Of a stretch of DNA of 64,000 nt, positions 2,599 to 64,000 are shown piece by piece. Position 1 is the first letter of the stretch, and the number at the start of each line of letters is the position of its first letter. The notes beneath the pieces were generated by a model, which saw only the letters and a program-made list of their open reading frames with translations, made no database searches and had not been told where the DNA came from. Source of the DNA: Scenedesmus sp. PABB004 (Eukaryota); the NCBI GenBank assembly GCA_014905635.1, contig JABVCE010000014.1, forward strand, positions 496,001-560,000. The letters are read 5' to 3'. Position numbers and translations under genes: made by a program.

Positions 2599-3646
2599 TC
2601 AGACCGCGCCCGTGAGCTTGCTGAGCACTGCGAGCACCGAGATGATCGCAATGATCCAAAGAAAGTAGTTGCTGCTCATGGCCTGCGGCCAGCGGCGGCG
2701 CGGCGCGCGCGCGCGGGGCTCAGGCGACAGCGCCGGGGCGCGCGCGCGTGCGCCCGCGCCGGCGCCGCCGCCCGAGCCCCGCCCGCGCGCACCGGCCGCT
2801 GCGGGCCGGCCCGCTGGGCTGGCGCTGCTGCTGCGAGGCTGCTGCTGCTGCGAGGCTGCTGCTGCGAGGCTGCCGCTGCGAGGCTGCCGCTGCGAGGCTG
2901 CCGCTGCGAGGCTGCCGCTGCGAGGCTGCTGCTGCGCCGGCCTTCACACCCACACACACGCACACGCAATCACGCAACCACGCAACCACGCGCAGCACAC
3001 GCGCAGCAGGGAAAACTGCCAGCAGGGGTGTGGCGCAGCGGAGACGCCCGGGCGGCGTGCAGCAGCCAGGGCGCGCGTGCGCCGGGGGACCTCGCTGGCC
3101 GCGCGCGTCGCCGTGTGTGGCTGGCGTGTGCGGGCGTGTGCGCTGGCGCCGCGAGCGGCGGCGGGCCCGGCGACGGCCGGGGGCGCGCCCGCCGCGCGCG
3201 CGGCGGCGCAAAGCAGCGCCGCGCGCACCTTGTTCTCCGCGCCGCCGAGGCCGTAGTACTCCTGGCGCAGGCGCTGCTTCATCTCCTTGGACAGGTTGTC
3301 CTTCTGCCGCAGCTGCGCGCGTCGGCGGGGGCGGGCGGCCGCTCAGCGCGCGGCCGGGGCGGGGGCGCGCGGCCAGGGGATTGCGCGGCCCCGCCCCGCC
3401 GCGCGCGCGCACCGCGGGGGGCAGCTGGTCGGCGTACAGCGCGCCCTCGGCCTTCTTCTCCTCGCCCGGCACCACCACTTCGCCCGAGTCCTCGCGGAAC
3501 TCGCGCACGGGCCGCGCGACGGGCTTCTCGCCCTCGCCCGCGCCCACGCGGCCGCCCAGCGGCCGCCGCACGCCGCCAGCGCGCCCGGACCGCAGGCGCG
3601 CGCCCGACGCGGCCGACGCGGCCGCGCTGCGGGGCGCGAGCTGCAT
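2599..3646 (-). CDS. Small plastid-targeted single-TM protein of unknown function
   Basis: Three exons: transit-like MQLAPRSAAASAASGARLR...REFREDSGEV, then DNLSKEMKQRLRQEYYGLGGAENK, then AMSSNYFLWIIAIISVLAVLSKLTGAV* with a C-terminal TM helix. Clean splice sites. Confidence 0.75.
2824..2935 (+). repeat. Intronic minisatellite, ~14-bp unit GCYGCTGCGAGGCT, about 7 copies
   Basis: Tandem units visible directly in the long intron of the preceding gene. Confidence 0.85.
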
Positions 3647-15300: not shown

Positions 15301-16756
15301 AGGGCGCGGCCACGGGCGCCGTCGACAGCGCGCCGGGCGCCGGCGACGGCGTGGCCGACGAGGAGGAGCGGCGGCCGGCGCTGCTGCGCGTGGCACGTGG
15401 CAGCTGGAGCGCGGATGAGGCGGAGGAGGAGGAGCAGCTGCACGCGGCCGTCGTCGAACGCAGCGCGGCGCACGAGGTGGGCGGCGAGGGTGCGGCAGCC
15501 GGCGCCGCCAGCCTCGGCGCCTGGCAGGAGCTCGCCGACTCTGCCGCCGAGGTGGTGGCCGAGGAGGCGGCTTGGGAGGAGGCGCTGGCGGCGTGGCAGC
15601 CCGGGCCGCAGCAGGCAGCGCCGGCCGGGCGCAGCACCAGCGGCAGCGTCGCAGACGACGTTGCCGACGGCGTGGCGGCGACCGCAGCAGACGATGAGGA
15701 CTGGCCGGTGGCGCAGGAGGGGCCGGCAGCGCGCGCCGTCGCGAGCGCCTCGCCGGCGCCGTCGTCCGTCGTGGACGAGGCGCTGGCAGCGCGCGCCGCC
15801 GCGAGCACCTCGCCGGCGCCGTCGTCCGTGGCGGAGGAGGCGCCGGCGGCGGCGGCCATGGCTGTGGCGCGGCGCGCGGCCTCGAGCGCGTCGGAGGTGG
15901 GGAGCTCGGCGGACTACACGGAGGACTTTGAGGCGGCCAGCCTCGCGCAGGGCACGTCGCCCGCGTGGTCGCGCTGCAGCGCCGACAGCCTGGAGCTGCA
16001 GCAGCGCGAGGTCGCGGCGCTGCGAGCGCGGCTGGCGCGCGAGACGGAGCGGCAGCGCCTGGCGGAGCAGGAGGCGGCGCTGCGTGCGCAGTTGCAGCAG
16101 CTCGCCGCCGTGCCGGTGGCAGCGGCGCCAGAGCAGGCTGTGCCGCTGCCGCGCGCTGAGAGCGGCGAGGCTGCCAGCTCCGTTGACGTTGCCTCGGCCA
16201 TGGAGCTGGCGCCGCCGCAGCAGGGCGACGGCGTGCAACCCGCCAGCACTGCTGCCAGCAGCGTCGCGGAGGAGGAGCTGGGGGCTGCGGAGCCGCAGCA
16301 GGGGGCCAGCGACGAGGAGAGTGAGGCGGAGCAGGGCCTGGCGGCCGCGCTGTCGCCGTCCGCGCTGGAGGCGCAGCTGCTGCCGCCGCCGGGCGCCGAC
16401 GCCTGGGTCACCGCCCGCGGCGCCGCGGCGGCGGACAGCGGCTCGCTTAAGGGCTACGCTGCCGAGGCGTTCTGCAGCGAGGGCGCCGAGCCGCCGGCCT
16501 GGCCCGGCCCGGCTGCACTCGCAGCGGGCGGCTCGGCGTTTGAGCTGTCAGCGTCGGAGGTCAGCTCGCTGCTGCAGGACGCGGCGGACATCGAGCTGGA
16601 GGTTGGCACGGAGCGCAGCGCGTCCGCCGAGCCCGCGGCGGCCGGCGACTGGCCGGCCGACGCCGCGACGGCGGCGGCGCCGCCAGCGCAGCTGCCGGGG
16701 GCCTGGCCGCTGGAGCGGGGCGCAGCCCTGCAGGAGGCGGACCAGCAGCCGCAGCC

Positions 16757-21235: not shown

Positions 21236-21937
21236 ATGCGCGCGGCGAGCCGCGCGGCGGCAGCAGCAGCGGCGGCGCCGGCGCGCCGCTTCGCCGCCCC
21301 GCGCGCGCAGCGGGGGCGTGCCCGTGCGACCATCATGGGCGCCCTGATCACCGGGCAGACGATCGTCGTCACCGGGGCTTCGCAGGGCATCGGGCTCGAG
21401 TTTGCGCGCCAGCTGCTCGACAAGGGCAACACGGTCGTCGCGGCCGTCCGCAACCCGCAGGCGCCCGGCCTCGTGGTGTGCGGCGGCGCGCCGCGCCGCG
21501 CGCGGCGGCCGCGCCCCTGGCGCCGGGCGGCGGCGCGCGCCGCGCCACGCGCGCCGTGCCACGCGCGCCGCGCCGCGCCGCGGCAGGCGCTCGCCGGCGA
21601 CGCGCCCCCGGGCGGCTCTTCGTCACGCGGCTCGACGTCGCGGACCCCGGCAGCGTCGCGGCGTGGGCGGCGGGGCTGCGCGAGGCCGTGCCGGGGCTGC
21701 GCCACGTCGACCTGGTCATCAACAACGCCGGCGAGTTGTTGCTCGCTGCCGGCGCGCAGCGCGCGGGGCGCGCGCGGTCGCGCGGCCCGCGGGGGCGCCC
21801 GCGCACGCGCTGGCGAGCCAACGCCGCGCCGTCGCCCCTCCGCCGGCAGGCATCTACGGCCGCAAGGTCGACATCAGCACCGTGACAGAGGCGGACATGA
21901 TCGCAGCGTTCAAGGCGCGCGCACGCCGGGCACCGCA

Positions 21938-21970
<33 letters not shown>

Positions 21971-22100
21971 TGCGCTCCCAGCGCGCGGCCCTCCGTCCCC
22001 GCGAGCGCAGAGCGCCGAATGCGCGCGGCGAGCCGCGCGGCGGCAGCAGCAGCGGCGCACGCCGGGCACCGCACGCCGCGCCCGCGCCCGCGCCCGCGCC

Positions 22101-22167
<67 letters not shown>

Positions 22168-22892
22168 CGCGCCCGCGCCCGCGGCCAGCGCCGCCGCGGC
22201 CGCGCCGCCCGGCCTCGGAACCCCCGCCCGCGCCGGCGCCGCAGACCAACACGATCGGCCCCCTGCTCGTCGTGCAGCAGGCAAGCAAGGGAAGGGGCGG
22301 GGTGCTGCGTTGCTGCGGCGGCGGCGGCGGCGTCGGGCGCGAGCTCACTCACGCTGCCCAATCGCCCCGCCCGCCCGCGCCGCGCAGCTGCTCAAGGCGG
22401 GCCTGCTGGGCGGCCCGGGCGGCAGGAGCGTCGTGGCTAACGTGACCAGCAAGGTGCGGCCGGGTCCCGTCCTCCAACCGCGGCCCGCCCGCGCCGCCGG
22501 GGCCCGCCGCCCTCCCTGCGCGCGCGCGCGCGCGCCCCACGCCCACGCGGCGCTCCCCGCGCCGCGCGTGCCCCCACGCGGCGCTCCCCGCGCGCCGCAC
22601 GCAAAAAAAAAAGGTCGGCAGCGTCGACGACAACCGGGGCGGCGGCGGCTACGCGTACCGCGCGAGCAAGAGCGCCCTGAACATCGTGAACAAGAGCATG
22701 AGCATCGACCTGTCGGGCGAGGGCGTGACGGCGGTGCTGCTGCACCCCGGCTACGTGCGCACAGCGATGACCGACGGCAGCGGCCTCATCGACGCCGACA
22801 CGAGCGTCGCCGGCATGCTGTCGGTGCTGGAGAGCGACCGCCCGCTCAACGGCGGCTGGTGGGACTACAAGGGCGAGGTGGTGCCCTGGTGA
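21236..22892 (+). CDS. Short-chain dehydrogenase/reductase, C-factor (CsgA)-like, with transit-like N-terminus
   Basis: VVTGASQGIGLEF (TGxxxGxG), VINNAG, NVTSKVGS, YAYRASK (YxxxK), LLHPGYVRTAM, DYKGEVVPW*. Six exons. Confidence 0.93.
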
Positions 22893-23158
22893 TAGCGGCG
22901 CGCGCGGCGACGAGAGAGAGAGAGAGCGGGGGGCCCGCCGGCGGCGCCGCCGCGCGGAGCAGCGGCGGGTGTGACCGCGGCGCGGTGACGGGCGGCCGCC
23001 GGCCAGCCGCCGCTCGTTTTGCCAAGGCTCCCGCGCGTTCTGGCGCGTGGGTGAGAGCTCGCGCCCGTCGGCAGCCACGTCCCGCAGCCAGCGCGCGCAC
23101 CGGCAGCGCCAGCACAGTCCATCACGTTGAGTGCGCACTTTGCGCACGCCGAGCATCA

Positions 23159-25642
23159 ATGGCGGCTCGGGTGTCAATGCTGTTGCTGCTGGCGTTCCTG
23201 GCGCTCTGCTGCGCCCGCGCCAGCGCTGGCCGGCCCGCCGGCCGGAGCGCAGGCGCGAGCAGCAGCACCCGCATCGCCAGCGACGACAGCGGCAAGCGCA
23301 ACAACAGGCGCGGCGCGGCGGCACGCCGGGCGGGGGCCAGGCAGCACGCGGGCCCAACGCGATCGCCCGCACAGCGAGCCGCCGCCACCCCCGGCCGCCG
23401 CTGCTGCCGACCGGCGCCGCGCCCGCCGCTGCGCCCGCCCCAGGCCCATCGTGGGCGTGCTCTCGCAGGCCGGTCTTGAGGAGGACACGTTCGTGCCCGA
23501 GAACGGCACCTACATCGCCGGTGCGCGCCGCAGCTCGCTAGCCCACGCACGGCGAGCGCCAGCGCGCGGTGGCCGTGCGCACCCCTCCCCCCAACCACAC
23601 GCGCGCGGCCCCCACGCCCGCCGCCGCAGCGTCGTACGTCAAGTTTGTCGAGTCCGGCGGCGCGCGCGTGGTGCCCATCCTCGCCGACACGCCGCCCGAC
23701 GTGGTGCGCGCCGCGCGCCGCGCCCCGCCCTCCTCCCTCCGCGCCCCTCCTCTCACCCGCCGGGCGCGCCCGCCCGCGCACCCGCGCCCGCAGCTCTCCG
23801 CGCTGCTGAAGCGCCTCAACGGCGTGCTCGTCCCCGGCGGCGCGGCCAACCTGCGCCCGGGGCACGCTTTCTTTGACACCGCGTCCGCCGTGCTCCGCCA
23901 CGCGACGGCGGCCGCCGACCGGGGCGAGTACTTTCCGCTGCTCGGCATCTGCCTCGGCTTTGAGACGCTCATGGTCGCCGTCGCGGGTGCGGCGGCGCGG
24001 CGCGGCCGGGGCGGCGGGCGCGGCGGCGGCGGCGGCGCGGGTGTGGCGCTGGCGCGGACAGCCCCTGTCCGCGCGGCGGCGGCGGCGCCGCCGCACGCGC
24101 GCGCGCGGGCGCGAGTGGGTGTGGCCGGGCGTGCGCGCCGTCGCCCCCGTCAGCCCCCCGTCGCCCCTCCCTCGCCTCCGCGCCGCGCCAGGCAGCCACG
24201 ACATCCTGACCTCGTACGACAGCGATGGCATGGCGGCGCAGCTCTACTTCACCGCGGACGCGCCGGACAGCCGCTTCTTCCAGTCGTGGGACCTCGACCT
24301 CGTGTTTGACGTCCTCCAGGCGCGCCGCGGGGGCTGGTGTGCGCGTGGTTTTTGCGCGTGTGTGCGTTTGTGGGGGGGGGGGGGGGCACAGGGCAGCTGG
24401 GGCGGAGAGGCGCGCGGGGGCGATGGCGGCGGCGGCGGCCCACGGCAACGCGCGTGCCGCCGCAGACGCCGCTGACGCGCGAGAGCCACAGCAGCGGCGT
24501 GAGCCTGAAGACCTTTTACGCCAACGCCAAGCTCTCCGCCTTCTTCAACCCACTCACCCTCTCCCTCGACAAGGAGGGCAAGGTGCGGCGGCGGCGGCGC
24601 GCCGGGGCATCAGCGCCGCGGCGCACGGGGCGCCGGCGCCGCGCGCGCGCGCGCTGCAGGGCGCGCGAGCGCGCGCGAGCGCGCGGCCGCGTGCCACGCG
24701 CGCGCGTGCAGGTGTACATCAGCACGGTGGAGGCCAAGGGCTACCCCATCCTGGGCCTGCAGTGGCACCCAGAGAAGAACAGCTTCGAGGCGCGCGCGCG
24801 GCGGCGGATGCGCGCGGGGGGCGGCGGCGGACGCGCACACAGGGGGTTTGGGGGGCAGCGGGGCGGCGCACACGGGGCGGCACGCCGCGCGTGGGAGCTC
24901 GGCGGCACGCCGAGCGGCGGCTGACGCCGCGTCCGCGCCTGGCCGCCGGGCGGGCGCAGTGGACCAAGCACAAGCAGATCCCCCACGGCTACTGGCCCTC
25001 CGAGGTCACGCACCAGGTGCGCGCGCACGCGCACTCGCACACACGCACGCACGCACGCTCGCGCGCGGGCACACGCATTGCAAGCAAGAAAACAGCCCGC
25101 GAACGCACCACGCACGCACGCGCCGACAACGCCCCGCGGCGGCGGCGCAGACGGCGCGCTTCTTCGTGAACGAGACGCGGCGCAGCCTGTCCGGCTTCCG
25201 GGACGTCGTGGACGAGGACGTGTGGCTGGCCTACAACGACCGCGTCGTGTTCTCCGGCCGGCACATCAAGGAGGACGTGAGTGGCAGCCCGCGGGGGACG
25301 ACGCGGCGGCGCGCGCGCGGGAGGGGACGGCGCGCGGAGGGGACGGCGCGGGGCGCGGGGCGCGCGGCGACGGGGCGCGAGGGCGCGGGGCGGGGCGCGA
25401 GCGGCGGCGCCCAGGCGCGGCGCGCCGCCTCACGCGCGCGCGCGCGCGCCGCAGGACCCGGTGTGGGCGGAGCAGGCGTACGTGTTCCCCGCGTGGCACG
25501 AGTATGCGAAGCAGCTCGACAAGCGCGCGTCGCTCGCGGGCGCGACTGGCTGGACTCCATCGACGCCGGCAACGCGGCGCGCCGCGCCCCGGCGCCCCGC
25601 CGCGCCGGCGGCGCGCCGGCGGCCGCGGCCACGGCGACCTAG
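23159..25642 (+). CDS. GGH: Gamma-glutamyl hydrolase (peptidase C26)
   Basis: Signal peptide, RPIVGVLSQ, YIAASYVKFVESGGARVVP, NGVLVPGG, FPLLGICLGFE (catalytic Cys), GLQWHPEK (catalytic His), FFVNETRRS. The end assumes a 1-nt error near 25540. Confidence 0.93.
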
Positions 25643-26227
25643 GCGCGCGCGGCGCGTGCGGAGGCTGCGGAGGTCTCGGACGGCGGTGGTCGGGGCCGGC
25701 GCTGGCGCGGGCGGCGCCGCCGTCCTCCATCTGAGGCGGCGCGCGCTGGGGCCGGCGGTCGGTCGCGCGTCTTGCGCCAACATCGGCCTGGGCGCCGCTC
25801 TGAAATGCACACGCGGCGCACGCGCAGCGCGTTGTCGTCCGCTGCCGCCGCTGCGGCCCGCTGCCAGCGCTCAAGCGCCGGCAGCACGCGGCTTGACCGG
25901 CCTCCAGCGCACTCCAGGCTGCGCAGCTGCTGCTGCAACTGCGGCCGGGGCAGCTCCAGGTGCACCGGGACGTCCGCTCGTGGCCGCAGCAGGGCGCCTC
26001 GCGCGGCCGCAGCGGGCCGCTCGGCGCCGGGCGGGCGCGGACCGGCTGCGGCGCTGCCGCTGCCGCTGCTCGCCCGCGCGTGGGGCGGAGGGCTGCGCGC
26101 GAGGGGCTCGGACGCGATACATGAATCGGGGAACGGCGGTCACGTCAGCCCGAGAAGAACCGCGCGGTCAACCCCCGACTTCACCGCACGAGCGCCGTTC
26201 GCCTCACGCACTGCTGAGACCGACCCC

Positions 26228-28415
26228 ATGGCGGCGCCGTACTCGCTCGTGCTCGCGCGCATCAAGGTGCTGCTCAGCCAGGGCGCCGGCGACGGCGGCG
26301 AGACGCTCGACGAGCTCGAGCGCTTGCTCAGGAGCGGCCGCCGCACCACGCTGCTAGCTCAGTGGGCGGGCTGCACGCGCCCTGGCCGCCGCCGCCGCGG
26401 CGTCTGCGAACGCCGCCCGCGCCGCCGCCTCTCGTCGCGCAGCGGCGTGAGCGAGCTGCTGGCGGGCCTGCCGGTGCCCGCGCTGCGCCGGCTCGCCGCG
26501 TCGGCGCGGGTCGTCAACTTCAAGGCCGGTAAGAGCATCTACGATGCCGGCTCGCCCGCGGAGCGCTTCGTTGTGATCCTCACCGGCCGCGTCGACCTCT
26601 GGACGCACCCGCCCGGCACGCTGCGGTGCGGTGCGCGCCCCCGCGCCGCGCCCGGACGGCGCCGACGCCGCCCTGCCCAGCCACGCCGCCCGCGTGCCCC
26701 GCAGGCCGCGCACGGTGGTCAGAGCGCTGCGCAAGGGCGAGGCTTTCGGCGAGCAGGCCCTCCTGAGCGGCGCCTGCCACGCGACCGTGGCGACGCCGAG
26801 CAGCGACGCCAGCCTGCTGGTGGTGGGCAGGGAGGTGCGCGCGGCGGGCTGGTGCGCCGTCAGCGCAGGCGCGCGCGCGGTCAGCGCAGCGCGCACACCT
26901 TGCGCCCATCGCGCACGCCGTCGCCACCACCGCGCCCGCGGCCAGGACTTCCTGCACATCTTCGGGCCCCACTTTGCCGCCGTCACCGCGCGCTGGACCG
27001 CGTTCCTCTCGGGCCGCGTCGCGCCGCTCGCGGGGTGCTCACCGAGCCAGCTGCAGCGGCTGTGCGCCGGCGCGTGCAGCAGCAGGCCGGGCGACGGCAG
27101 GGAGTGGGTGCCGGCGCGTGAGGAGCAGCTGTACTTCATCGCGGTGCGCCGCCGGCGGGCTGCCGGCAGCGCTGCCGGCAGCGCTAGCGCCACCGCCGCC
27201 GCCGCGCCGCCGCCGACGCGCGACGCGCGGCGCGCGGGCGCGCGCGCGCAGGCGGGCGCCTTTGAGCTGCAGCTGGTGGACCAGGAGCGCCAGCAGCGCG
27301 CGTCTGATGCGGCGGCGCAGGGAGCTGGGGCGGGCCTGCAGCCGGCAGCTGAGCTGGCGCCCGGCGGCGGCGCGCACGCGCTGAGCAGCTCTGGCGCGCT
27401 CGCGGGCGTGCGCTTGCAGGGCGGCCGCGTGGTGGGCACGCTGGGGGCGGAGCGGGAGCTGGCGGCGCGGCGGCAGGCCGTGCCGCGCAGGCGGGTCGCG
27501 ACGCTGGGAGCAGGGGGCTGGTTTGGCGGCGGCGACGCCGTGCACGGCGCGGGCCCGGTCCAGGCCGCGCTGCGCGTGGTGGCCACGGGTGCGCCGCGCG
27601 CTGCGCCGCCCGTGCAGCTGCGGGCGGCAGCGCGCCCAGCGCGCGGCAGGCGCGGGTGCCCGGGCGCGCGCCGCCACGCAAGCGCCCCGCCCGCCGACAC
27701 CGCCGCCGCCGCGCGCTCGGCTGCGGCCAGGGCCTGGGTGCGAGCTCATCCACGTGCCCCTGGCCGCGCTGGCGCAGCACGCCAGCGAGGCGGCCGTGGC
27801 GGCACTGTGCGACGACGCTGCGTTCCGGCTCAGCTACGCCTTGGGGCGGCTGGGCCTGGTCCCGCTCGGCACCGCGGTCGGCCACCCGCGCGCGGCGCTG
27901 CTGTCGGAGGCCCACGGCCCGGCGAGGCGCGCGGCGAGCACGCGGGCGCGGGCGCGGACGGCGGCTGCGGGCGGCGCGCCGCGCGGCGCGCGCGCGCCCC
28001 TGGCGCCGCGTTTGGCCCCGCCGCCGAGGCGGCGCTGCGGCACGTGCGCAACCTGGCGGACGAGCCCGGCGCGGCGCCGCCGGCGGGCGCCCCGGCGGGC
28101 ACGGCGGCCGAGCGCTTCCTGGCCATGTCGGAGCAGCAGGGTGGCTTGCCGGCGGGCGCGGCGCTCGCGTCGCTGCTGGCGGGCCTGTTTGACGACGGCC
28201 TGCAGCCGCTGCTCGCGGAGGAGGTGGGCGCGCCGGCGGCGGCGGCGGCGTGCGACGCCGGCGCCGGCGCGGTGCCGCCGGAGCTGCGCCGGCCGCAGAG
28301 CGCCGCGCTGGCCGCGGCGCGCGTGCTGTGGACGCGCGAGCAGGGGCGCGCGCCGCCGGCGCTGCGGCAGAGCAGCACGACGAGCGAGCTGGGCGCTGGT
28401 CGGCGGCGCGCGTGA
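26228..28415 (+). CDS. Cyclic-nucleotide-binding (cNMP) domain protein; second domain degenerate
   Basis: FKAGKSIYDAGSPAERFVVILTGRVDL...LRKGEAFGEQALL...ATV; second copy LYFIA|AGAFEL...VATLGAGGWFGG. The 3' end is approximate. Confidence 0.75.
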
Positions 28416-28583
28416 GCAGGGGGCAGCAGGCGCAGCAGGCGGAGCAGGCTCGGCGGCGGGCGCAGCGCGTTGCAGAGCTGCGCGCGGGCGCGGCGGCGGC
28501 TGCGCCGGGCGGCGCGGCGCCGCGGGGCGGGCAGGCGGCGGCCAGCGGCCAGCGGCCAGCGGGCGCAACGCGGTTAACAGCAA

Positions 28584-28658
28584 AGAGCGGAGACCGGCCG
28601 CTGCAAGGCAGATCAGCATAGATCTATGCTGATCTAGATCGGCCGGGCGGCAGACTCT
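28584..28658 (+). ncRNA. Hairpin H1 built on a perfect 26-bp palindrome (28610-28635)
   Basis: AGATCAGCATAGA|TCTATGCTGATCT, extended by CCGGCCG (28594-28600) pairing with CGGCCGG (28640-28646). Confidence 0.5.
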
Positions 28659-28699
28659 CGGATGTGATGCGCGCTGCGCGAGCGCGTCGCCTGCCAGGT

Positions 28700-28767
28700 G
28701 CCGGTCGCCTTGTCGTTGACAGCAATCAGTGTCGAGGTCCATTGTCGTCAACGACAAGGCGACCGGC
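28700..28767 (+). ncRNA. Hairpin H2, pre-miRNA-like
   Basis: 28700-28720 GCCGGTCGCCTTGTCGTTGAC is the exact reverse complement of 28747-28767. The stem continues with one mismatch, one G-U and CAAT/ATTG. 14-nt loop. Confidence 0.65.
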
Positions 28768-28834
28768 TCGCCCGAGGTGCACGCGGCGCCCGAGATGCGC
28801 CCGCCCGGCACAAACGAACGAGAGAAGTCTTGCA

Positions 28835-28944
28835 GTCGAGGACGTGCTCAGGGCCGCAGCATCTTGGCGAAGCCCCCATCCATCGCGCAATCGACGGCTT
28901 CACCAAGATGCTGGGCCCCGCGCTGACATCAGCACAGTCTCGGC
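28835..28944 (+). ncRNA. Hairpin H3, pre-miRNA-like
   Basis: 28851-28874 GGGCCGCAGCATCTTGGCGAAGCC pairs with 28896-28918 GGCTTCACCAAGATGCTGGGCCC (1 bulge, 1 mismatch). Lower stem GTCGAGGACGTGCT / AGCACAGTCTCGGC. Confidence 0.65.
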
Positions 28945-29041
28945 GCAGCAGGTCGAGAGGCGAGAGGCGGGAAAAGCAGCCGCTGTTGCACGAGCGCGCG
29001 TGCGAGGTGCCGCCCCCGCCCCCGCCGCCACGCGCCGCGGC

Positions 29042-29118
29042 TGACCACGATCAGCCCATCTTGACGTGCTTCTTCTAACGTCAAGAAGAGGCACATCAAG
29101 GTGGGCTGATCGTGGTCA
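29042..29118 (+). ncRNA. Hairpin H4, pre-miRNA-like, 35-bp stem
   Basis: 29042-29076 pairs with 29084-29118: 32 Watson-Crick pairs, 2 G-U, 1 C/A mismatch. 7-nt loop AACGTCA. Confidence 0.7.
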
Positions 29119-29142
29119 CACGCCGCGCTGGCCGCCCGCCCA

Positions 29143-29194
29143 CCGTGGTCGGACGCCTCGCTGACCGTGAGGCGAGGAAGGCGACTGACCATGG
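29143..29194 (+). ncRNA. Hairpin H5 (weaker)
   Basis: CCGTGGTCGGACGCCT (29143-29158) pairs with AGGCGACTGACCATGG (29179-29194), with 2 G-U and 1 mismatch. Confidence 0.45.
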
Positions 29195-30168
29195 GCAGGG
29201 GGGGGGGGGTGCGGCGCGGCAGCGCGCCGGCACCAGCTGCGCACGCCGCGACTGCGCGGCGCGGCGTTGTGCGGCACCCAGCACCGGGCGGGGCGGTGAG
29301 CCGCAGCAGCAGCCGCCGCTGCGGAGGCCCTGCGGGCGCGGGGCGAGGGCCGCCAGCCGGCGCCCAGGCGCCCACGCCGCGCCCCGGCGCGCGCCGGCGC
29401 GCCCTGGCGCCGTGGGCGGCCGCTGCTTCCGGAGCGCGCCGCGCCCCGCCGCCGCCCATGCGCGCCGCCGCGACGCCTGCCGCGAAGGCCCACGCGCCGC
29501 GTGATCACGCCGGCGCACCTCGGAGGCGGGTGCGGCCCCGACCGTGCCCAGACTGGGCGGGCGAGGGGGCGCCGCCGCGCGCCGCGCCGGGCCTGGGCCC
29601 AGCGGTGAACCGCCCGCTCGCTCGCTCGCTCTGCATCGGTTGTCGCCGTCCGCCGCCCATGCACACCCCGCTTGGCAACAGGCCCCACCGCACGACCGCG
29701 AGCCAGCCAGCCGGCGCCGCAGCGGCAGCAGCCCGCACGCGCCCGCCGCCGCCGCGTCGAGCTCTCGCGCCGCCGCAGGCCCGCTCGCCGCGGGCGGTCG
29801 GGGAGCTGCGTCCCGCGCGTCGGGGAGCAGCGCGGGAACCCGGCAGGCCGCGTGCGAGTCGCGCGGCCGCCCGCGGGCCGGTGGCGCGGCGCCGGCGGCT
29901 CCCACGCCCGCGACATCCCGGAGCGGCGACGTTGAGCGCGCGCCTGGCGGCGCCGCAGCAGGTGCGGGCGGCGAGCAGCGGCGGCGGGCAGCGGCCGGCA
30001 GCGGCGGCCGCGCCAGCGTGCGGGGCCCCCCGGCGCGCAAGCGGCGGGGCCGTGCGACTCCCCCGGACGCGCGCGGGCGCGACGCGCGCTCGCCGCCGGC
30101 CATGCGGCGTGGCCGCGGCGCGCTCCGCGCGGCGCCGCAACGCCGCCGCTGCTGCGCCCGCAGCCGCG

Positions 30169-30729
30169 ATGAGCTACGACGAGGTTGAGATCGAGGACAT
30201 GGCCTGGGACGAGGCCCGCGGCGCGTACACGTATCAGTGCCCCTGCGGCGACCTCTTCCTCATCACGCTGGTGCGGCGCGCCGCCGCAGCGCGGCACCCC
30301 CCGCCGCCGCAGCGGCGCCGGCGCCGCAGCGCGCGTGCCCGCCGCCGCGCGCGACCGCGCGGTTGCGCCCGCGCCGCGCAGGAGGAGCTGCGCGCGGGGG
30401 AGGAGATCGCGCGCTGCCCGAGCTGCTCGCTGTACATCACGGTCATCTATGACCAGGCGCGCCCCCTGCCTGCGGCGCTGCGGCGGCGGCGGCCCGCGCG
30501 CCACGCCCCCTCTCCCTCCCCCCTCCCTCTCCTCCCCCACCAGCGGCGCGGCGGGCGGCGCTCGTCGCTGCGGCGGCGGCGCCAAGGCCGGCGCGCGTGC
30601 TGCGCTCGCGGGCGGCCCACGCGCGGCCTGCCCCGCCCCGCCCCTCCCGCCCGCGCGCAGGCGGACTTCCAGGACGTCGAGCCGCCCGGCGGCGCGCAGC
30701 AGCCGGCCAAGGAGGTTCTGGTGGCGTGA
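30169..30729 (+). CDS. DPH3: Diphthamide biosynthesis protein 3 (CSL zinc ribbon, Kti11)
   Basis: Exons 30169-30270, 30382-30456, 30661-30729 give 81 aa: MSYDEVEIEDM...YTYQCPCGDLF...ARCPSCSLYITVIYD. Confidence 0.96.
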   Translation: MSYDEVEIEDMAWDEARGAYTYQCPCGDLFLITLVRRAAAARHPPPPQRRRRRSARARRRARPRGCARAAQEELRAGEEIARCPSCSLYITVIYDQARPLPAALRRRRPARHAPSPSPLPLLPHQRRGGRRSSLRRRRQGRRACCARGRPTRGLPRPAPPARAQADFQDVEPPGGAQQPAKEVLVA

Positions 30730-31067
30730 GCGCGCCGGCGCCGTGGCGGGGCTGCGGCGGCGGCCTTGCGCGGCGGCGGCCTGGTCGCCCAGCAGCGGCT
30801 GGCGACGAGCTCGCCTCGAGCTCGAGGCATCGATCGTTCGTTGCACGCGCGGCACGGGCCTGTCCTCGCAGGCGGGGCTGGCGATGGAGCGCGGCGAGTG
30901 AGCAAAAGCAAAAGCAAAAGGCGGACGGGCCACGGGGCCCTCGTGCTGTGACACGCACACCCTCCGCGCGCGCGACCCGCGACCGATATCAGCCGGCGGC
31001 AATTGGTTTGGGCATGCGACAACGCCCGCCCACAGCCCCTCGCCCCTCGGCGCGCCGCGCCACGCGG

Positions 31068-32203
31068 TCACCGCTTCTGCGCCGGCGCCGCCGCGGGGCC
31101 GGCGCCGGCGGCTGCGGCCGCCGGCGGGCGCACGACGAAGCGCACGAAAAAGGGGTTGGGCCCCATGTGCGGCACGCCCGGCGGCGGGCCGGCGCCAAAC
31201 GCGCCGCCCGGCGGGACGGCGCCAAACGCGCCCGGGCGGACCCGCCAGGCAAACGGGCCCGCGCCGGGGGCGGGCGCGGCGGGCGCCGCGCGGTCGGCGC
31301 CGCGGCCGCGGCCGCCCGCGGGCGCGTGCGCGTGCGCGGCGGCGGCGCCGCGGCCGCGGCCGCCCGCGGGCGCGTGCGCGTGCGCGGCGGCGCCGCCGCC
31401 GCCCGGCGGCGCGCCGCCCTCGGCGACCGTTGTGAGCAGGTCGTGCGCGGCGTTGAGCACCTTGAACGCCTCGTCAAACACGGCGGCGTACTCGTCGTGG
31501 CCGCGCTGCTGCGCCTTGTCGGGGTGCACCGCGAGCGCGAGGCGCGTGAACGTGCGCTTGAGGCCCGGCCGCGCGCGCCGCACCGCGGCCGCCGCGTCGG
31601 CGCCGTCGGTGCAGGGCACGCGGAAGACGGCCATCGCCGCCGCGAGGCGCAGCGGCGGGCCCCGCGCCATGACCGCGCCGCAGAGGTTGATGCGCCGGCA
31701 CTCCCACAGCTGCGTGCGCGACCGCGCGAGCGCCAGCAGCTCACCCTTCTCGACCACGCCCGCGAGCTCGCGCTCACTCACGCGCGCCTGCGGCGGCGCG
31801 CGGCGGGCGTGTGGGCCGCCGCTGCGCGCGCGCCGGGGGCGCGGCCGCGACCGCCGCGCCGCGCCGCGCCGCGCCCGCCCCTGCCCGTGCCCACCTGGCG
31901 GATGAAGTCTCGCAGCTCCTTAACCGACAGGCTGTCCAGGTCGGGCACATCGCTGGACAGCGTGATGACCGGGGCGCCCCCCACCTGCGCCGCCGCCGCC
32001 GGCCGCTGCTGCTGCTGGTGCTGCTGCTGCTGCTGCTGCTGCTGCGCCGCCTGTTGCGCGGCCCCGGCCACTGCCGCTGCCGCCGCCGCGGCGGCGGCCT
32101 GCGATCGCTGCGCCGCGGCCGCGCGCGCCGCAGCCTGCGCCCGCTGCGCTGCGGCGGCGGCCGCCGCCACCTTCGCCCGGTGCTGCTGCGCGGCCTCGTG
32201 CGC

Positions 32204-42164: not shown

Positions 42165-44335
42165 ATGCAGCACGCCGCCGCCGCTGGTTCGGCAGCAGCG
42201 CTGCCGCGCCGGGCCGCCGCGTGCAGTGCGTGGCGGCCCGGCTGGGGGCCTCCCTGGGAGTGGCCTGGCCAACCGCTGCGCGTGCGCTGCCCGCCGGTGC
42301 TTCAAGCCCCGCCGCCGCCGGCGCCGCCGCCGCCGCCGCCCGCGCGCGCGCAGGCCCAGCGGGCGCCGACGGGGCCGGGGCCGGGCCTGGGGCACCGGCG
42401 CGGCCGGCCCGCGGCCGCCGCGCGGCCGGCCGGCCGGCCGCGCGCCGCGCGGCCGGCCCCGCGCGCGGCCAGCGACGGCGAGCGCGACCCGATGCTGCTG
42501 CGCCTGCTCGGCCTGGGCGCCGGCGGCGGCGCCGCGCCCCGCGGCGCCGCGCCGCCGCCGCCCGCCACGTCGGCGCCGGGGCTGGGCGCGCTGCGGCAGG
42601 GCGTGATTAACCCGCACCACCCGGTCTACCGCGCGTGGCGGGGGCTGCTCATCGGCGCGGCGGCGCTGACGGGCGTATTTGTGCCGTGGGAGCTGGGGTT
42701 TGGCGACGCGGAGCGGCTCTACTCGTTTGACAGCTGGGCGACGTGGCTCGACCTCGGCCTGGTCGCCCTCTTCCTGGCTGACATCGGTGCGCGCGCGGGC
42801 CTGGCAGGAGGGCCCTGGGCGGGCCAGGGCGGGCGGGCCTGGCAGGAGGGGCCTGGGGAGGCAGAGGGGCGTGGAGGGAGGGCCGGCAGCGCGCGCGCGC
42901 GTGCGCGCATGCGGGCGCGAGCGGGCGTGAGTAGCGCCACGGAGCAGGGCGGCGGCGGGCGGGGCGCTGCCGCGTGGCAGCCCCCGCCGACGCGCGCGCG
43001 CGCGCCGCCGCCGGCGCCGCCGCTGCCGGCCCGCCCAGGCGTGAGCCACGCGGTCGCGTACGAGACGGACGAGCTGCTGGTCGACGAGCCGGGGGCGATC
43101 GCGGCCAACTACCGGCGCCAGCGCCTCGCGCTCGACCTGCTCAGCGCCATACCCTTCGACTGGATCGCCCTCGGCGCCGCCGCCGCGCTCGGCGCCGCGG
43201 CGGCCGGCGGCGGCGGCGGCGACGGCGGCGCCGGCGCCGCCGAGGGCGCCGCGGCCGCGCCGGCGCTGCTCGGCGCTGCAGCCGCGGCGCTCGGCCACGC
43301 GGGCGCGGGCGCGGGCGGTGCCGTGGCCACAGCGGGGCCCGTGCCCGCGCTCGCCTGCCTCAAGGGCCTGCACCTGGTGCGCCCGCGCCCGCGCCCGCCG
43401 CCGCGCGTGCGCCCCTCCCCTCCCTCTCCTCTCCCCCCCCCCTCCTCTCTCCCCCTCCCTCCCTCCCGCGCTCACTCCTCCCTCTCCCTCCACCACTCCC
43501 TCCCGCCCTCCCTCCCTCCCGCGCTCGCTCCTCCCTCCCTCTCACTCCCCCCCCCCCGCAGGTGCGGCTATACCGTGTCCGCTGGTTCTTCCGGTATCTC
43601 GAATACGACCTCACCGTCAGCCTCCTCACCGTCACCGTCGCGCGCAACCTGGTGCGCCGCGCCGCGCGCGCGGACGCCGCGCGCGCGCGGCGCGGGGCGT
43701 GCCCGCCGGGCGCGCGGCGCGGGCCTGGGCCGGGCCGGCGCCGCGCCGCCCGCGTCCTCACGCATCCCTCCCTCCCCCCCCCCCCCCCCCCCCCCCCCTC
43801 AGGTCATCGTGCTGTACCTCACGCACTGGGTGGCCTGCGGCTTCAACCTGCTCGCCCGGGACGGCGGCTACGACCCCGACCTGCTCGTCGGGCTCAACCC
43901 GACGCTCTTCGCCAGCATCAGCGCGCCAGACCAGTACGTGTACTCACTCTACTGGGCCGGTGAGTGAGGTTGAGACACTCTGTTTATTGCCTCAAGGGCG
44001 TGAGCGAGCGATGCGGCGATTGTTTGTTTTGTATTGCAAGGGGCGCTAGGGTTAAGGGCGTCGCGTGGGCCCAGACACGGGGTGGCGCGAGCGCCGCGCC
44101 CGCTGACGCCGGCGCGCTCCCCGCGCCCGCCCCTGCCCCGCTGTGGCCGCGCCCCTTCCGTGCCCCCCCCCCCCTCAGTGACGACGCTCGCGGGGAACGA
44201 GTGGAACGGCATGGACGCTGTGACCGACATGCGCCAGGTCGTGGCCAACACCACACGCGCGGGGTGCGCCGCCCGCGCGCCGCGCGCGCGCCGCGGCCGC
44301 CGCGCCGGCGGCCGCTCCTGCCTCAACCCTGGAAG

Positions 44336-62737: not shown

Positions 62738-64000
62738 CAGCGGCGGCGCCGCGGGCGGCGGCGCGGCGCGCACCTTCCTGCTCGCGTCGGCGCGCAACGC
62801 CGACGTCGTGTGGACGCAGGTGGAGGGCTTGCAGGAGCGCGCGCAGCTGCAGGTCGAGGCCGCGGCCGCGGCGGCGTCGTCGGGCAGCGGCGGCCCGCCG
62901 CCGCCGCCGGCCGGCGGCGCGCCCGGCGGCGCCGGCGCCGGCGCGCCGGCGCACGGCGACGCGCCGCTGGACCCCGTGCTCGCGCAGCTGCTCGCGCGCG
63001 CGGCGAGCCTCAAGGGCGCGTGGGGGCGGGCGATGTTTGGGCTGGCCGACGCGGAGGTGCTGCAGCTGCTCGAGGCGCTGCCCGGCGCGGAGGGCGCGGC
63101 CAACTACCAGTTTGTGGATGAGCGCGGCGGCTGGGACAAGGAGCGCGAGCTGCTCGCCAAGGGCCGCTGGGCGCGGCGCAGCGGGCTGCAGGCCGGCGCG
63201 CGGCGCGCGCCCGCCGCCGGCGCGGCCGCAGCCGGCGCGGCCGGCGGCGGCAGCAGCGGCAAGGCGGCGGCCGCCGCCGGCGGCAAGGCGCCCGCACCGG
63301 GCGAGCCCGCCGCGGGGCGCAAGCGCGCGCACCCCGCGAGCGCGGCCGCGGCCGCGGCCGCCGCCGCGGCGGGCAGCGGCAGCGCGCTGTTTGGCCCCGC
63401 CGCGGCAAAGCGCTACCGCGGGCTGTCCCGTGACGACAAGGCCGTGGCGACTGCGGTGGACCAGACGCTGGACAAGGTCATTCGCAAGCTGGAGACCTGG
63501 TGGGTGCACGAGACGGCGCGCGAGGCCAAGCGGGCGGAGGCCGCGGCGCGGCGCGAGGACGCGAAGCGCGCGCGCGCCGAGGCCAAGGCGGCGGCCAAGG
63601 CGGCGGCCAAGGCGGAGCAGGTGCGTGTGAGTGTGGGTCGGTGCGCGCGCGCGCATGGCCAGCCGCTGCCGGCGGCCGGCTGCGCGCCGGCATGGGCCGC
63701 CCCCGCCCGCGCTCGCGCGCGCACCTCACGCGCTTCGCGCCGCGCCACGCCTCGCAGGGCGCGGCGGAGGCGGCCGCCGACGGCTCGCCCAAGCCGCCTG
63801 CGGCGCCGCCAAAGGCGCCCCTGCGGGAGGACCTGTCCCTGCCCGGCGCGGCCAGCACGCCCGCGCCCCCCGCGGCGCCGTTGCTGCGCGTGCTGCGCGG
63901 CCGCCAGGCGGCGCAGCTGCTGCAGGTCTGGGAGTGCGCCTGCCGCTTCGGCCCGCTGCTGGGGCTGGACGCGGTGCCGACGCCGGAGCAGCTCGAGGCG
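61821..64000 (+). CDS. MBD9-like chromatin protein (MBD + FYRN/FYRC + start of DDT); 3' truncated and absent from the ORF track
   Basis: ATG 61821; LGEGWRCDVK...YLTPGGKRLRSRGEVAKFLGL (MBD); GVVVEALGAVDARPAF..PGYRA (FYRN); WGRAMFGLADAEVLQLLEALPG (FYRC); LLQVWECACRFGPLLGL (DDT). Confidence 0.8.

What the first reader, a model, noticed from the sequence alone, without database searches (positions are those of the whole stretch)
28584..29200. Cluster of five unrelated hairpins: candidate polycistronic miRNA/small-RNA locus
Seen: five stem-loops within ~600 bp of non-coding DNA between the cNMP gene and DPH3. Stems are a 26-bp palindrome, a 21-bp perfect stem extending to 27, ~23 bp plus a lower stem, 35 bp and 16 bp. 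They are more AT-balanced than the flanks, so GC bias does not explain them. They share no sequence and several are separated by purine-rich linkers (CAAAGAG, CAAACGAACGAGAGAAG, GAGAGGCGGGAAAAG). Stem imperfections modestly favour the + strand (5 G-U versus 3 C/A). The 3' arms offer 5'-U 21-mers (UCAACGACAAGGCGACCGGCU, UUCACCAAGAUGCUGGGCCCC, UCAAGGUGGGCUGAUCGUGGU). Known: Chlamydomonas and Volvox make ~21-nt 5'-U miRNAs from hairpins, often in introns or UTRs, and these are lineage-specific. Inference: a compact cluster of short pre-miRNAs, possibly in the cNMP gene 3' UTR.
Basis: partly seen in the sequence, partly recalled or inferred. Interest (0 to 1): 0.9.

Follow-up and report, generated by a model that had tools for sequence, protein, structure and literature searches.

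The report
Five-hairpin cluster in algal gene spacer
Five different, near-perfect DNA inverted repeats really do sit side by side in a 600-base non-coding stretch of an extremely GC-rich green alga, and they look like candidate small-RNA hairpins, but no RNA data or related genome could be found to show that they are used.

Summary
At 28594-29196 there are five unrelated stem-loops. Three are strong: HP2, HP3 and HP4 have z -6 to -14 against shuffles. Two are weaker: HP1 and HP5 have z about -4. They lie in a 67% GC island of a 78.6% GC window. They are the only non-simple inverted repeats with arm GC of 0.67 or less among 53 found in the 64 kb. Their arms occur nowhere else in the window.

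A 100%-identical database protein names the source as Scenedesmus sp. PABB004. The island starts 178 nt after the stop codon of a cNMP-binding gene and ends 972 nt before the DPH3 start codon. Both genes are on the + strand. The public gene model, an obvious four-gene fusion, calls the island an intron.

The interpretation could not be tested. No RNA run was listed, no relative's locus was found, and no genome was held for copy counts or for Dicer and Argonaute. The claimed + strand bias is not reproduced, because both strands fold equally well. HP1 and HP5 are too short for a 21-nt duplex.

My best guess (0.35) is that these are transcribed 3'-UTR or intron hairpins cut by a Dicer-like enzyme, as in Chlamydomonas. 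The main rival (0.28) is neutral template-switch inverted duplications. Interest is moderate.

The parts
28413..28415 (+). TGA ending the long + strand open frame of the cNMP-binding gene. It overlaps a GTGAG that resembles this genome's intron starts.
   Evidence: The public model splices out at 28400 instead of stopping here.
28416..28593 (+). G- and purine-rich, 83% GC spacer built of short tandem repeats. It is the presumed start of the 3' UTR.
   Evidence: GC skew +0.21, AT skew +0.49; 9-, 7-, 18- and 21-nt repeat units.
28594..28646 (.). HP1: perfect 26-bp zero-spacer palindrome (28610-28635, arm GC 0.35) inside a 6-bp outer stem.
   Evidence: I10; z -3.7 on both strands.
28693..28778 (.). 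HP2: 21-bp perfect stem extending to 27 nt arms (28700-28726 / 28741-28767), with a 14-nt loop and a weak lower stem.
   Evidence: I2; z -7.2 on +, -7.7 on -; 0 of 300 shuffles as good.
28844..28923 (.). HP3: 22-bp stem (5 + 11 + 6 bp; arms 28851-28874 / 28896-28919), a 21-nt loop and a 4-bp lower stem.
   Evidence: I3; z -6.0 on +, -6.7 on -.
29027..29132 (.). HP4: the longest hairpin, with 45-nt arms (29032-29076 / 29084-29128), a 34-bp core carrying one mismatch, and a 7-nt loop.
   Evidence: I1; z -13.7 on +, -12.8 on -. In one search, a metagenome contig covers 28890-29094.
29138..29196 (.). HP5: interrupted 21-pair stem-loop.
   Evidence: z -4.1 on +, -3.7 on -.
29198..29209 (+). G12 homopolymer that closes the island.
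30169..30171 (+). ATG of DPH3 (CSL zinc finger), the next gene downstream.
   Evidence: PF05207, E 4.7e-17.

Best explanation
The five inverted repeats are single-copy, independently born local inverted duplications. They lie in the long (1,753-nt) non-coding spacer between the stop codon of a cNMP-binding-protein gene and the DPH3 start codon.

They are most likely transcribed on the + strand, as part of that gene's 3' UTR or of an intron, which is how the public model draws the region. In the RNA they would fold into separate hairpins. HP2, HP3 and HP4 at least would then be cut by a Dicer-like RNase III. This would resemble the DCL3-dependent UTR and intron hairpins of Chlamydomonas. The cut would release about 21-nt small RNAs, destabilise the host transcript, or both.

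What is shown: the hairpins, their statistical excess, their uniqueness in the window and their position. What is inferred: transcription, strand, cleavage and any targets.
For: - The hairpins are far beyond chance. They are the only non-simple inverted repeats with arm GC of 0.67 or less among 53 in 64 kb.
- HP2-HP4 have stems of 21-35 bp with 0-1 internal mismatch in the core. That is long enough for one 21-nt duplex each.
- The island starts 178 nt after the upstream stop codon, on the same strand as both neighbouring genes.
- The spacer is about 1.75 kb. Two other spacings readable in the window are roughly 270 nt (SDR stop to the next ATG) and 340 nt (DPH3 stop to the lower end of the minus-strand DnaJ-type open frame). 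The spacer therefore has room for extra non-coding function.
- A source names the organism as a Scenedesmus (class Chlorophyceae). A passage in PMC10226591 places Argonaute clades in the common ancestor of Chlorophyceae.
- Passages of Valli et al. 2016 (PMC4817775) report 13 Chlamydomonas mRNAs with miRNA hairpins in UTRs, 26 with siRNA precursors, and 9 with hairpins but no small RNA. They infer that at least 43 mRNAs may be cut directly by DCL3.
- The arms are AT-richer (GC 0.35-0.67) than the 81-88% GC flanks. This is as expected if the sequence, and not only the pairing, is constrained.
- The one substitution seen in a stem in a related metagenome contig (29047 A>G) would turn A-U into G-U on the + strand. 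This rests on one contig at depth 2.7, and the partner base is not covered.
Against: - There are no expression data at all.
- There is no strand signal. Energies are -249.2 on + and -256.5 on -, and G-U pairs number 8 against 11.
- By my reading of the arms, the core-stem mismatches are all transitions, and they split evenly into wobble and A-C on either strand. That is what unselected DNA palindromes would show.
- HP1 is a zero-spacer perfect palindrome, which is a DNA-type feature. As RNA it gives only about 11 bp.
- HP5 is weak.
- No complementary target exists within the 64 kb.
- The presence of Dicer and Argonaute in this genome was not tested.
- Rfam gives only sub-threshold look-alikes, and nothing reaches gathering score in the whole window.
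Confidence: 0.35

Rival explanations
1. These are neutral scars of DNA replication. Each hairpin was made by a short template-switch (snap-back) event that pasted an inverted copy of neighbouring bases. The cluster marks a local hot spot beside repeat-rich, G-rich DNA and a G12 run, and it has no RNA or protein function.
For: - Both strands fold equally well, and the stem mismatches show no RNA-type bias.
- HP1 is a perfect palindrome with no spacer.
- Arm-to-arm divergence is low in all five (0-13%), as for young events.
- The island is bounded by tandem-repeat DNA and a G12 tract.
- Template switching is reported to create perfect hairpins, including new miRNA genes (PMC10710096). It is also reported to expand inverted repeats near yeast promoters (PMC13100816). 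For both papers I saw only the search listing and the start of the abstract.
Against: - Five independent events within 600 bp, with none in the other 63 kb at comparable composition, needs a special hot spot.
- The stems are much AT-richer than the surrounding non-coding DNA. A copy of local 85% GC sequence would not give that.
- HP3's 3' arm and HP4's 5' arm with its loop are present almost unchanged in a diverged relative. At least those two are not brand new.
Confidence: 0.28
2. One reading: a true polycistronic miRNA cluster, in which each hairpin yields one defined 21-nt 5'-U guide that represses genes elsewhere in the genome.
For: - Everything listed for the best explanation applies here too.
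- 5'-T 21-mers exist on the 3' arms.
- The arms of HP2-HP5 show a weak three-base GC periodicity like coding exons (shuffle p 0.08-0.17 in 7 of the 8 arms; the HP5 3' arm shows none). This would fit origin from, and complementarity to, coding targets.
Against: - No targets were found in the window.
- A protein search with the open frame across HP2-HP4 found nothing at E of 10 or less.
- From recall, unrelated hairpins in one cluster are rare in plants and algae.
- HP1 and HP5 are unsuitable as precursors.
Confidence: 0.12
3. A DNA-level cis element. The palindromes would bind dimeric proteins or extrude cruciforms, and would act as promoter, insulator or terminator elements between two tandem genes.
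For: - The palindromes are strand-symmetric, and one is perfect with no spacer.
- They lie between two tandem genes, 972 nt upstream of DPH3.
- They are AT-richer than the flanks, so they would melt more easily.
Against: - Arms of 21-45 bp are far longer than usual binding sites.
- The five share no motif that a common factor could read.
- No other gene spacer in the window has anything similar.
Confidence: 0.1
4. Remnants of small foldback or MITE-type transposons inserted next to each other.
For: Terminal inverted repeats that form hairpins are the hallmark of such elements.
Against: - No second copy of any arm exists in 64 kb.
- By inspection, no target-site duplication flanks any of the five.
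- The units are only 53-106 nt long and are mutually unrelated.
- The published repeat content of the assembly is 1.31% (PMC12571836, passages read).
- Three arm sequences have 0 exact matches in viral contigs.
Confidence: 0.07

Closest known systems
DCL3-dependent hairpins in introns and 3' UTRs of Chlamydomonas reinhardtii mRNAs (Valli et al. 2016, PMC4817775; passages read)
   Same: Both are from chlorophycean algae. Both are near-perfect stem-loops embedded in the non-coding part of a protein-coding transcript. Both are lineage-specific and match no Rfam family.
   Different: Here there are five unrelated short hairpins in a row, not one precursor. There are no small-RNA or dcl-mutant data. 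Transcription, the processing enzyme and the strand are all unproven.
Hairpins and new miRNA genes born by template-switch mutation (PMC10710096; search listing and abstract start only)
   Same: Perfect or near-perfect short inverted repeats arise in one step from local sequence. They are strand-symmetric at birth.
   Different: No outgroup is available to reconstruct the events. The five-fold clustering and the AT-richer composition are not predicted by that model.
Animal polycistronic clusters of unrelated pre-miRNAs, such as miR-17~92 (recalled, from no call)
   Same: Several different hairpins of about 60-110 nt sit within less than 1 kb, separated by short linkers.
   Different: That system uses Drosha/DGCR8, which green algae are not known to have (recalled). 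No sequence relation exists.
Rfam MIR5304, mir-1451 and MIR4374 precursor models
   Same: HP4 and HP3 align to them end to end as long, regular hairpins.
   Different: Scores are 51.2, 32.6 and 29 bits against gathering scores of 75, 85 and 105. MIR4374 matches both strands. This is likeness of shape only.

Membership tests
MIRNA / hairpin small-RNA locus (plant-type annotation criteria, recalled) | A single-stranded foldback with a 20-24-nt duplex region, few mismatches and few asymmetric bulges. | tested here: met
   Met for HP2, HP3 and HP4. Not met for HP1 (about 11 bp as RNA). Doubtful for HP5.
MIRNA / hairpin small-RNA locus | Precise excision: discrete miR/miR* reads with 2-nt 3' overhangs in small-RNA libraries. 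| not testable with these tools
   No RNA run was listed. The one listed run is DNA contigs from a freshwater metagenome.
MIRNA / hairpin small-RNA locus | The locus is transcribed on a defined strand. | tested here: inconclusive
   The position downstream of a + strand stop codon suggests the + strand. Fold energies and wobble counts give no strand preference.
MIRNA / hairpin small-RNA locus | The organism encodes Dicer-like and Argonaute proteins. | not testable with these tools
   No whole genome is held. The only support is a literature passage about the class Chlorophyceae.
Curated Rfam RNA families | A score at or above the family's gathering threshold. | tested here: not met
   0 matches at gathering score in the whole window. 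There were 4 sub-threshold miRNA-model hits in 27500-30500.
MITE / foldback transposon | Many copies in the genome. | tested here: inconclusive
   No second copy exists in the 64-kb window, and the genome-wide repeat content is 1.31%. The full assembly could not be searched.
MITE / foldback transposon | Target-site duplications flanking the terminal inverted repeats. | tested here: not met
   By inspection of the bases flanking each of the five hairpins, none shows a direct repeat.
Template-switch-born inverted repeat | An outgroup shows the ancestral sequence replaced by an inverted copy of neighbouring bases. | not testable with these tools
   No orthologous locus was recovered. The only related contig already carries HP3's 3' arm and the apex of HP4.

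The most novel reading that the evidence does not exclude
The locus is a genuine polycistronic array of unrelated pre-miRNA-type hairpins in a green alga. That organisation is typical of animals. The AT-richer stems would be held against the most extreme GC pressure known in the group (78.5% genome GC), which implies selection on the guide sequences themselves. The stems may descend from inverted copies of coding fragments of their targets.
Probability: 0.12. Interest if true: 0.65.

Novelty: new member of a known kind. Interest (0 to 1): 0.38.

Why it matters
If the hairpins are diced, this would be the first small-RNA locus described in this very GC-rich, compact Scenedesmus genome. None of the 10 papers listed, of the 15 that name the strain, deals with small RNAs by title.

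It would also be a rare case of several unrelated precursors on one transcript in a green alga. That would make it useful for asking two questions. One is how algal Dicer-like enzymes measure short hairpins. The other is whether UTR hairpins regulate their host mRNA.

If they are only replication scars, the locus is still a compact natural example of repeated template switching, and a warning for hairpin-based miRNA prediction.

Either way, the public gene model over this region fuses four genes and should not be trusted for UTR or intron calls.

Tried and rejected
- **Whole-genome search for extra copies and targets:** no genome is held.
- **Public sequencing runs:** no RNA holder was listed. 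The single listed run is a freshwater-metagenome DNA run sharing 0.08 of the sampled words.
- **Laying that run:** it gave small low-depth contigs of a close relative. Only one of the 8 contig pieces listed (383 more were not shown) aligns across part of the island (record 4, 28890-29094, with 3 substitutions and 5 gap events). A second listed piece matches only 46 nt of simple linker with 8 mismatches. Its depth figures are not copy numbers, so I do not use them. Parts without cover mean nothing.
- **JGI metagenome scan with both sides of the HP4 stem as a gapped pattern:** 7 loci were returned. All 7 are unrelated palindromes of other organisms. blastn of window 26000-32000 against them gave no hit at E of 1e-3 or less, and the matched stretches differ everywhere outside the pattern.
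- **Viral contigs:** 0 exact matches for arm sequences of HP2, HP4 and HP1.
- **Earlier findings of this scan:** nothing for this genome or for look-alike stretches.
- **Coding potential of the island:**
  - Six open frames across the island were scanned against Pfam at E of 1 or less. Five had no family and one had a spurious sub-threshold hit.
  - The minus-strand frame 27837-28847 had no family.
  - No coherent frame is visible in the six-frame translation.
- **Idea that the arms are inverted copies of coding fragments:**
  - Only a weak three-base GC periodicity was found. In 7 of the 8 arms of HP2-HP5, p was 0.08-0.17. The HP2 5' arm gave 0.50, the HP5 3' arm 1.0 and HP1 0.36.
  - A search of 5.8 billion proteins with the 136-residue frame 28668-29075 found none at E of 10 or less among 1,949 candidates. 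This is a weak negative, because exact matches of 8-14 residues would not reach that E-value.
- **Poly(A) signals:** TGTAA occurs only twice on each strand in the 64 kb, and never near the island. The 3' end could not be placed.
- **Sliding 100-nt fold scan:** it was stopped by time at position 51,600 after 1,033 windows with 15 shuffles each. The island gives 6 of the 25 lowest z-scores. Four GC-rich windows elsewhere also ranked high. Refolded with 200 shuffles, they gave z -4.8, -4.4, -2.9 and -2.0, all weaker than HP2-HP4.
- **ARAGORN:** it called 3 'tRNAs' of 88-97 nt. None is supported by Rfam, so I take them as false positives of GC-rich DNA.
- **RNAi genes in Sphaeropleales:** the paper on small-RNA pathway genes across green plants (PMC7994812) has no passage on Scenedesmus or its relatives.

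Full report
**What is there**

The window is 78.6% GC. Between 28594 and 29196 lies a 67% GC island holding five separate stem-loops.

- HP1 is a perfect 26-bp palindrome (28610-28635, arm GC 0.35) inside a 6-bp outer stem.
- HP2 has a perfect 21-bp stem that extends to 27-nt arms.
- HP3 has 22 bp, arranged as 5 + 11 + 6.
- HP4 has 45-nt arms with a 34-bp core broken by a single mismatch.
- HP5 has 21 interrupted pairs.

The 661-nt stretch folds 91 kcal/mol better than its dinucleotide shuffles on the + strand (z -15.5). The - strand gives z -11.4. None of 20 shuffles was as good on either strand.

With 300 shuffles each, HP2, HP3 and HP4 have z -6 to -14. HP1 and HP5 have z about -4.

A scan of the whole window found 53 inverted repeats scoring 14 or more. 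Only HP1-HP4 and one CAG/CTG repeat had arm GC of 0.68 or less. The other 48 were simple GC-rich sequence with arm GC of 0.81 or more.

The island supplied six of the 25 most negative windows. Four competing GC-rich windows were refolded and were weaker, with z from -2.0 to -4.8.

The hairpins share no sequence with each other or with anything else in the 64 kb.

**Where it is**

A protein search with the open frame just upstream returned one 100%-identical, 1,137-residue protein, which its source names 'gghA [Scenedesmus sp. PABB004]'.

A comparative-genomics paper lists that assembly at 39.8 Mb in 77 contigs, with 78.5% GC, 1.31% repeats and 7,092 genes (PMC12571836, passages read). The GC figure fits the window.

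I mapped the protein onto the window. The model strings together four genes:
- a short-chain dehydrogenase, whose own stop codon is visible at 22890;
- a gamma-glutamyl hydrolase;
- a cNMP-binding protein;
- DPH3, which keeps its own ATG at 30169.

This model is a prediction artefact. It treats 28401-29780, the island included, as an intron.

Reading the DNA directly, the cNMP-binding frame runs to a TGA at 28413-28415. That TGA overlaps a GTGAG of the kind that starts introns here. The island therefore begins 178 nt after a probable stop codon and ends 972 nt before the DPH3 ATG. Both genes are on the + strand.

Two other spacings readable in the window are only about 270 and 340 nt. This 1.75-kb spacer is long for such a compact genome.

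**What could not be tested**

- No genome is held, so copy number, targets and RNAi genes could not be checked.
- No RNA run is listed. The single DNA holder is a freshwater metagenome sharing 8% of the sampled words.
- When that run was laid, it gave fragments of a close relative. One contig covers 28890-29094 with three substitutions and five gap events. HP3's 3' arm and the apical part of HP4 therefore exist in that relative.
  - Within that contig, 1 change falls in 80 stem bases: 29047 A>G, which would be A-U to G-U on the + strand.
  - 5 changes fall in 119 non-stem bases.
  - This is one contig at depth 2.7, and the difference is not significant.
- Three viral scans returned nothing.
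- Rfam gives no match at gathering score in the window. At a relaxed threshold it gives only shape-level, sub-threshold hits of HP4 and HP3 to unrelated miRNA models.

**Strand and selection signals**

- Summed energies are -249.2 on + and -256.5 on -.
- HP3 folds clearly better on the - strand, HP5 on the + strand, and the rest are tied.
- G-U pairs number 8 on + and 11 on -.
- By my reading of the arms, the core mismatches of HP2-HP4 are all transitions. They give three wobbles and three A-C mismatches whichever strand is read.

This symmetry is what unselected DNA palindromes show. It is the main argument for the rival explanation.

Against that rival stand three points:
- All five events lie within 600 bp.
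- The stems are far AT-richer than the flanking 81-88% GC DNA.
- At least two of the hairpins are present in a diverged relative.

A further hint is that the arms of HP2-HP5 show a weak three-base GC periodicity, like this alga's coding exons (p 0.08-0.17 in 7 of the 8 arms; the HP5 3' arm shows none). That would fit origin from coding fragments. However, Pfam found nothing real on the frames across the island. A 5.8-billion-protein search with the frame across HP2-HP4 also found nothing.

**Interpretation**

In Chlamydomonas, from the same algal class, near-perfect hairpins in 3' UTRs and introns of mRNAs are cut by DCL3. This yields miRNAs or siRNAs and lowers the host mRNA. The authors infer that at least 43 mRNAs may be cut this way, nine of them carrying hairpins that give no clear small RNAs (PMC4817775, passages). 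A passage in PMC10226591 places Argonaute clades at the base of the Chlorophyceae.

If the island is transcribed, which its position makes likely, and if this alga keeps a Dicer-like enzyme, then HP2-HP4 should be cut. I give that reading 0.35.

The stricter claim of a true multi-miRNA cluster with targets elsewhere gets 0.12. Neutral template-switch scars get 0.28. Template switching is a known source of perfect hairpins (PMC10710096 and PMC13100816, abstract starts only). A DNA-level cis element gets 0.10 and transposon remnants 0.07.

Origin by template switching and later use as an RNA hairpin do not exclude each other.

**Verdict**

This is a real, statistically striking and locally unique hairpin cluster in a plausible transcribed non-coding region. 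It is best filed as a candidate new member of the known class of algal hairpin small-RNA or Dicer-substrate loci. It is unproven, and the + strand claim is withdrawn.

Noticed in passing
window 21897-30726 (+): The public protein model P0004 ('gghA', 1,137 aa) fuses four separate genes into one: a short-chain dehydrogenase, a gamma-glutamyl hydrolase, a cNMP-binding protein and DPH3. It skips the dehydrogenase's stop codon at 22890 and reads through DPH3's own ATG at 30169. The low published gene count of this assembly (7,092) may partly reflect such fusions.
   Followed up: partly
window 2692-2803: A long, GC-rich (arm GC 0.91), imperfect hairpin of about 45 pairs. Its energy is -105.3 kcal/mol and z is -4.8, with 0 of 200 shuffles as good. 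It lies next to the FAD4-type lipid desaturase gene.
   Followed up: partly
window 15740-15860: A stretch inside a long open frame contains a direct repeat of about 23 nt and folds into a long helix (z -4.4, 0 of 200 shuffles). It was the top window of the sliding scan.
   Followed up: partly
window 28413-28417: The TGA that ends the cNMP-binding frame sits inside a GTGAG, the usual intron start in this genome. The gene may therefore end here or splice on. The public model uses a different donor at 28400.
   Followed up: no
window 29198-29209; 43774-43798; 22602-22610: Long homopolymers occur in an otherwise complex sequence: G12 closing the hairpin island, C25 directly before a 3' splice site, and a run of A's before an exon. 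C-runs followed by CAG seem to mark intron ends here.
   Followed up: no
window 28700-29195 (hairpin arms): The arms of HP2-HP5 (not the HP5 3' arm) read like codons with G or C at every third base, as this alga's conserved exons do. Each arm is only weakly significant on its own. The source genes, if any, could not be traced.
   Followed up: partly
window 24621-24710, 43194-43290, 62873-62960: ARAGORN calls three over-long 'tRNAs' (88-97 nt) that Rfam does not support. They are probably false positives in GC-rich DNA.
   Followed up: partly
whole window: The chlorophycean poly(A) signal TGTAA (recalled) occurs only twice per strand in 64 kb, and AATAAA occurs once. This genome may mark mRNA 3' ends with a different signal.
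   Followed up: no
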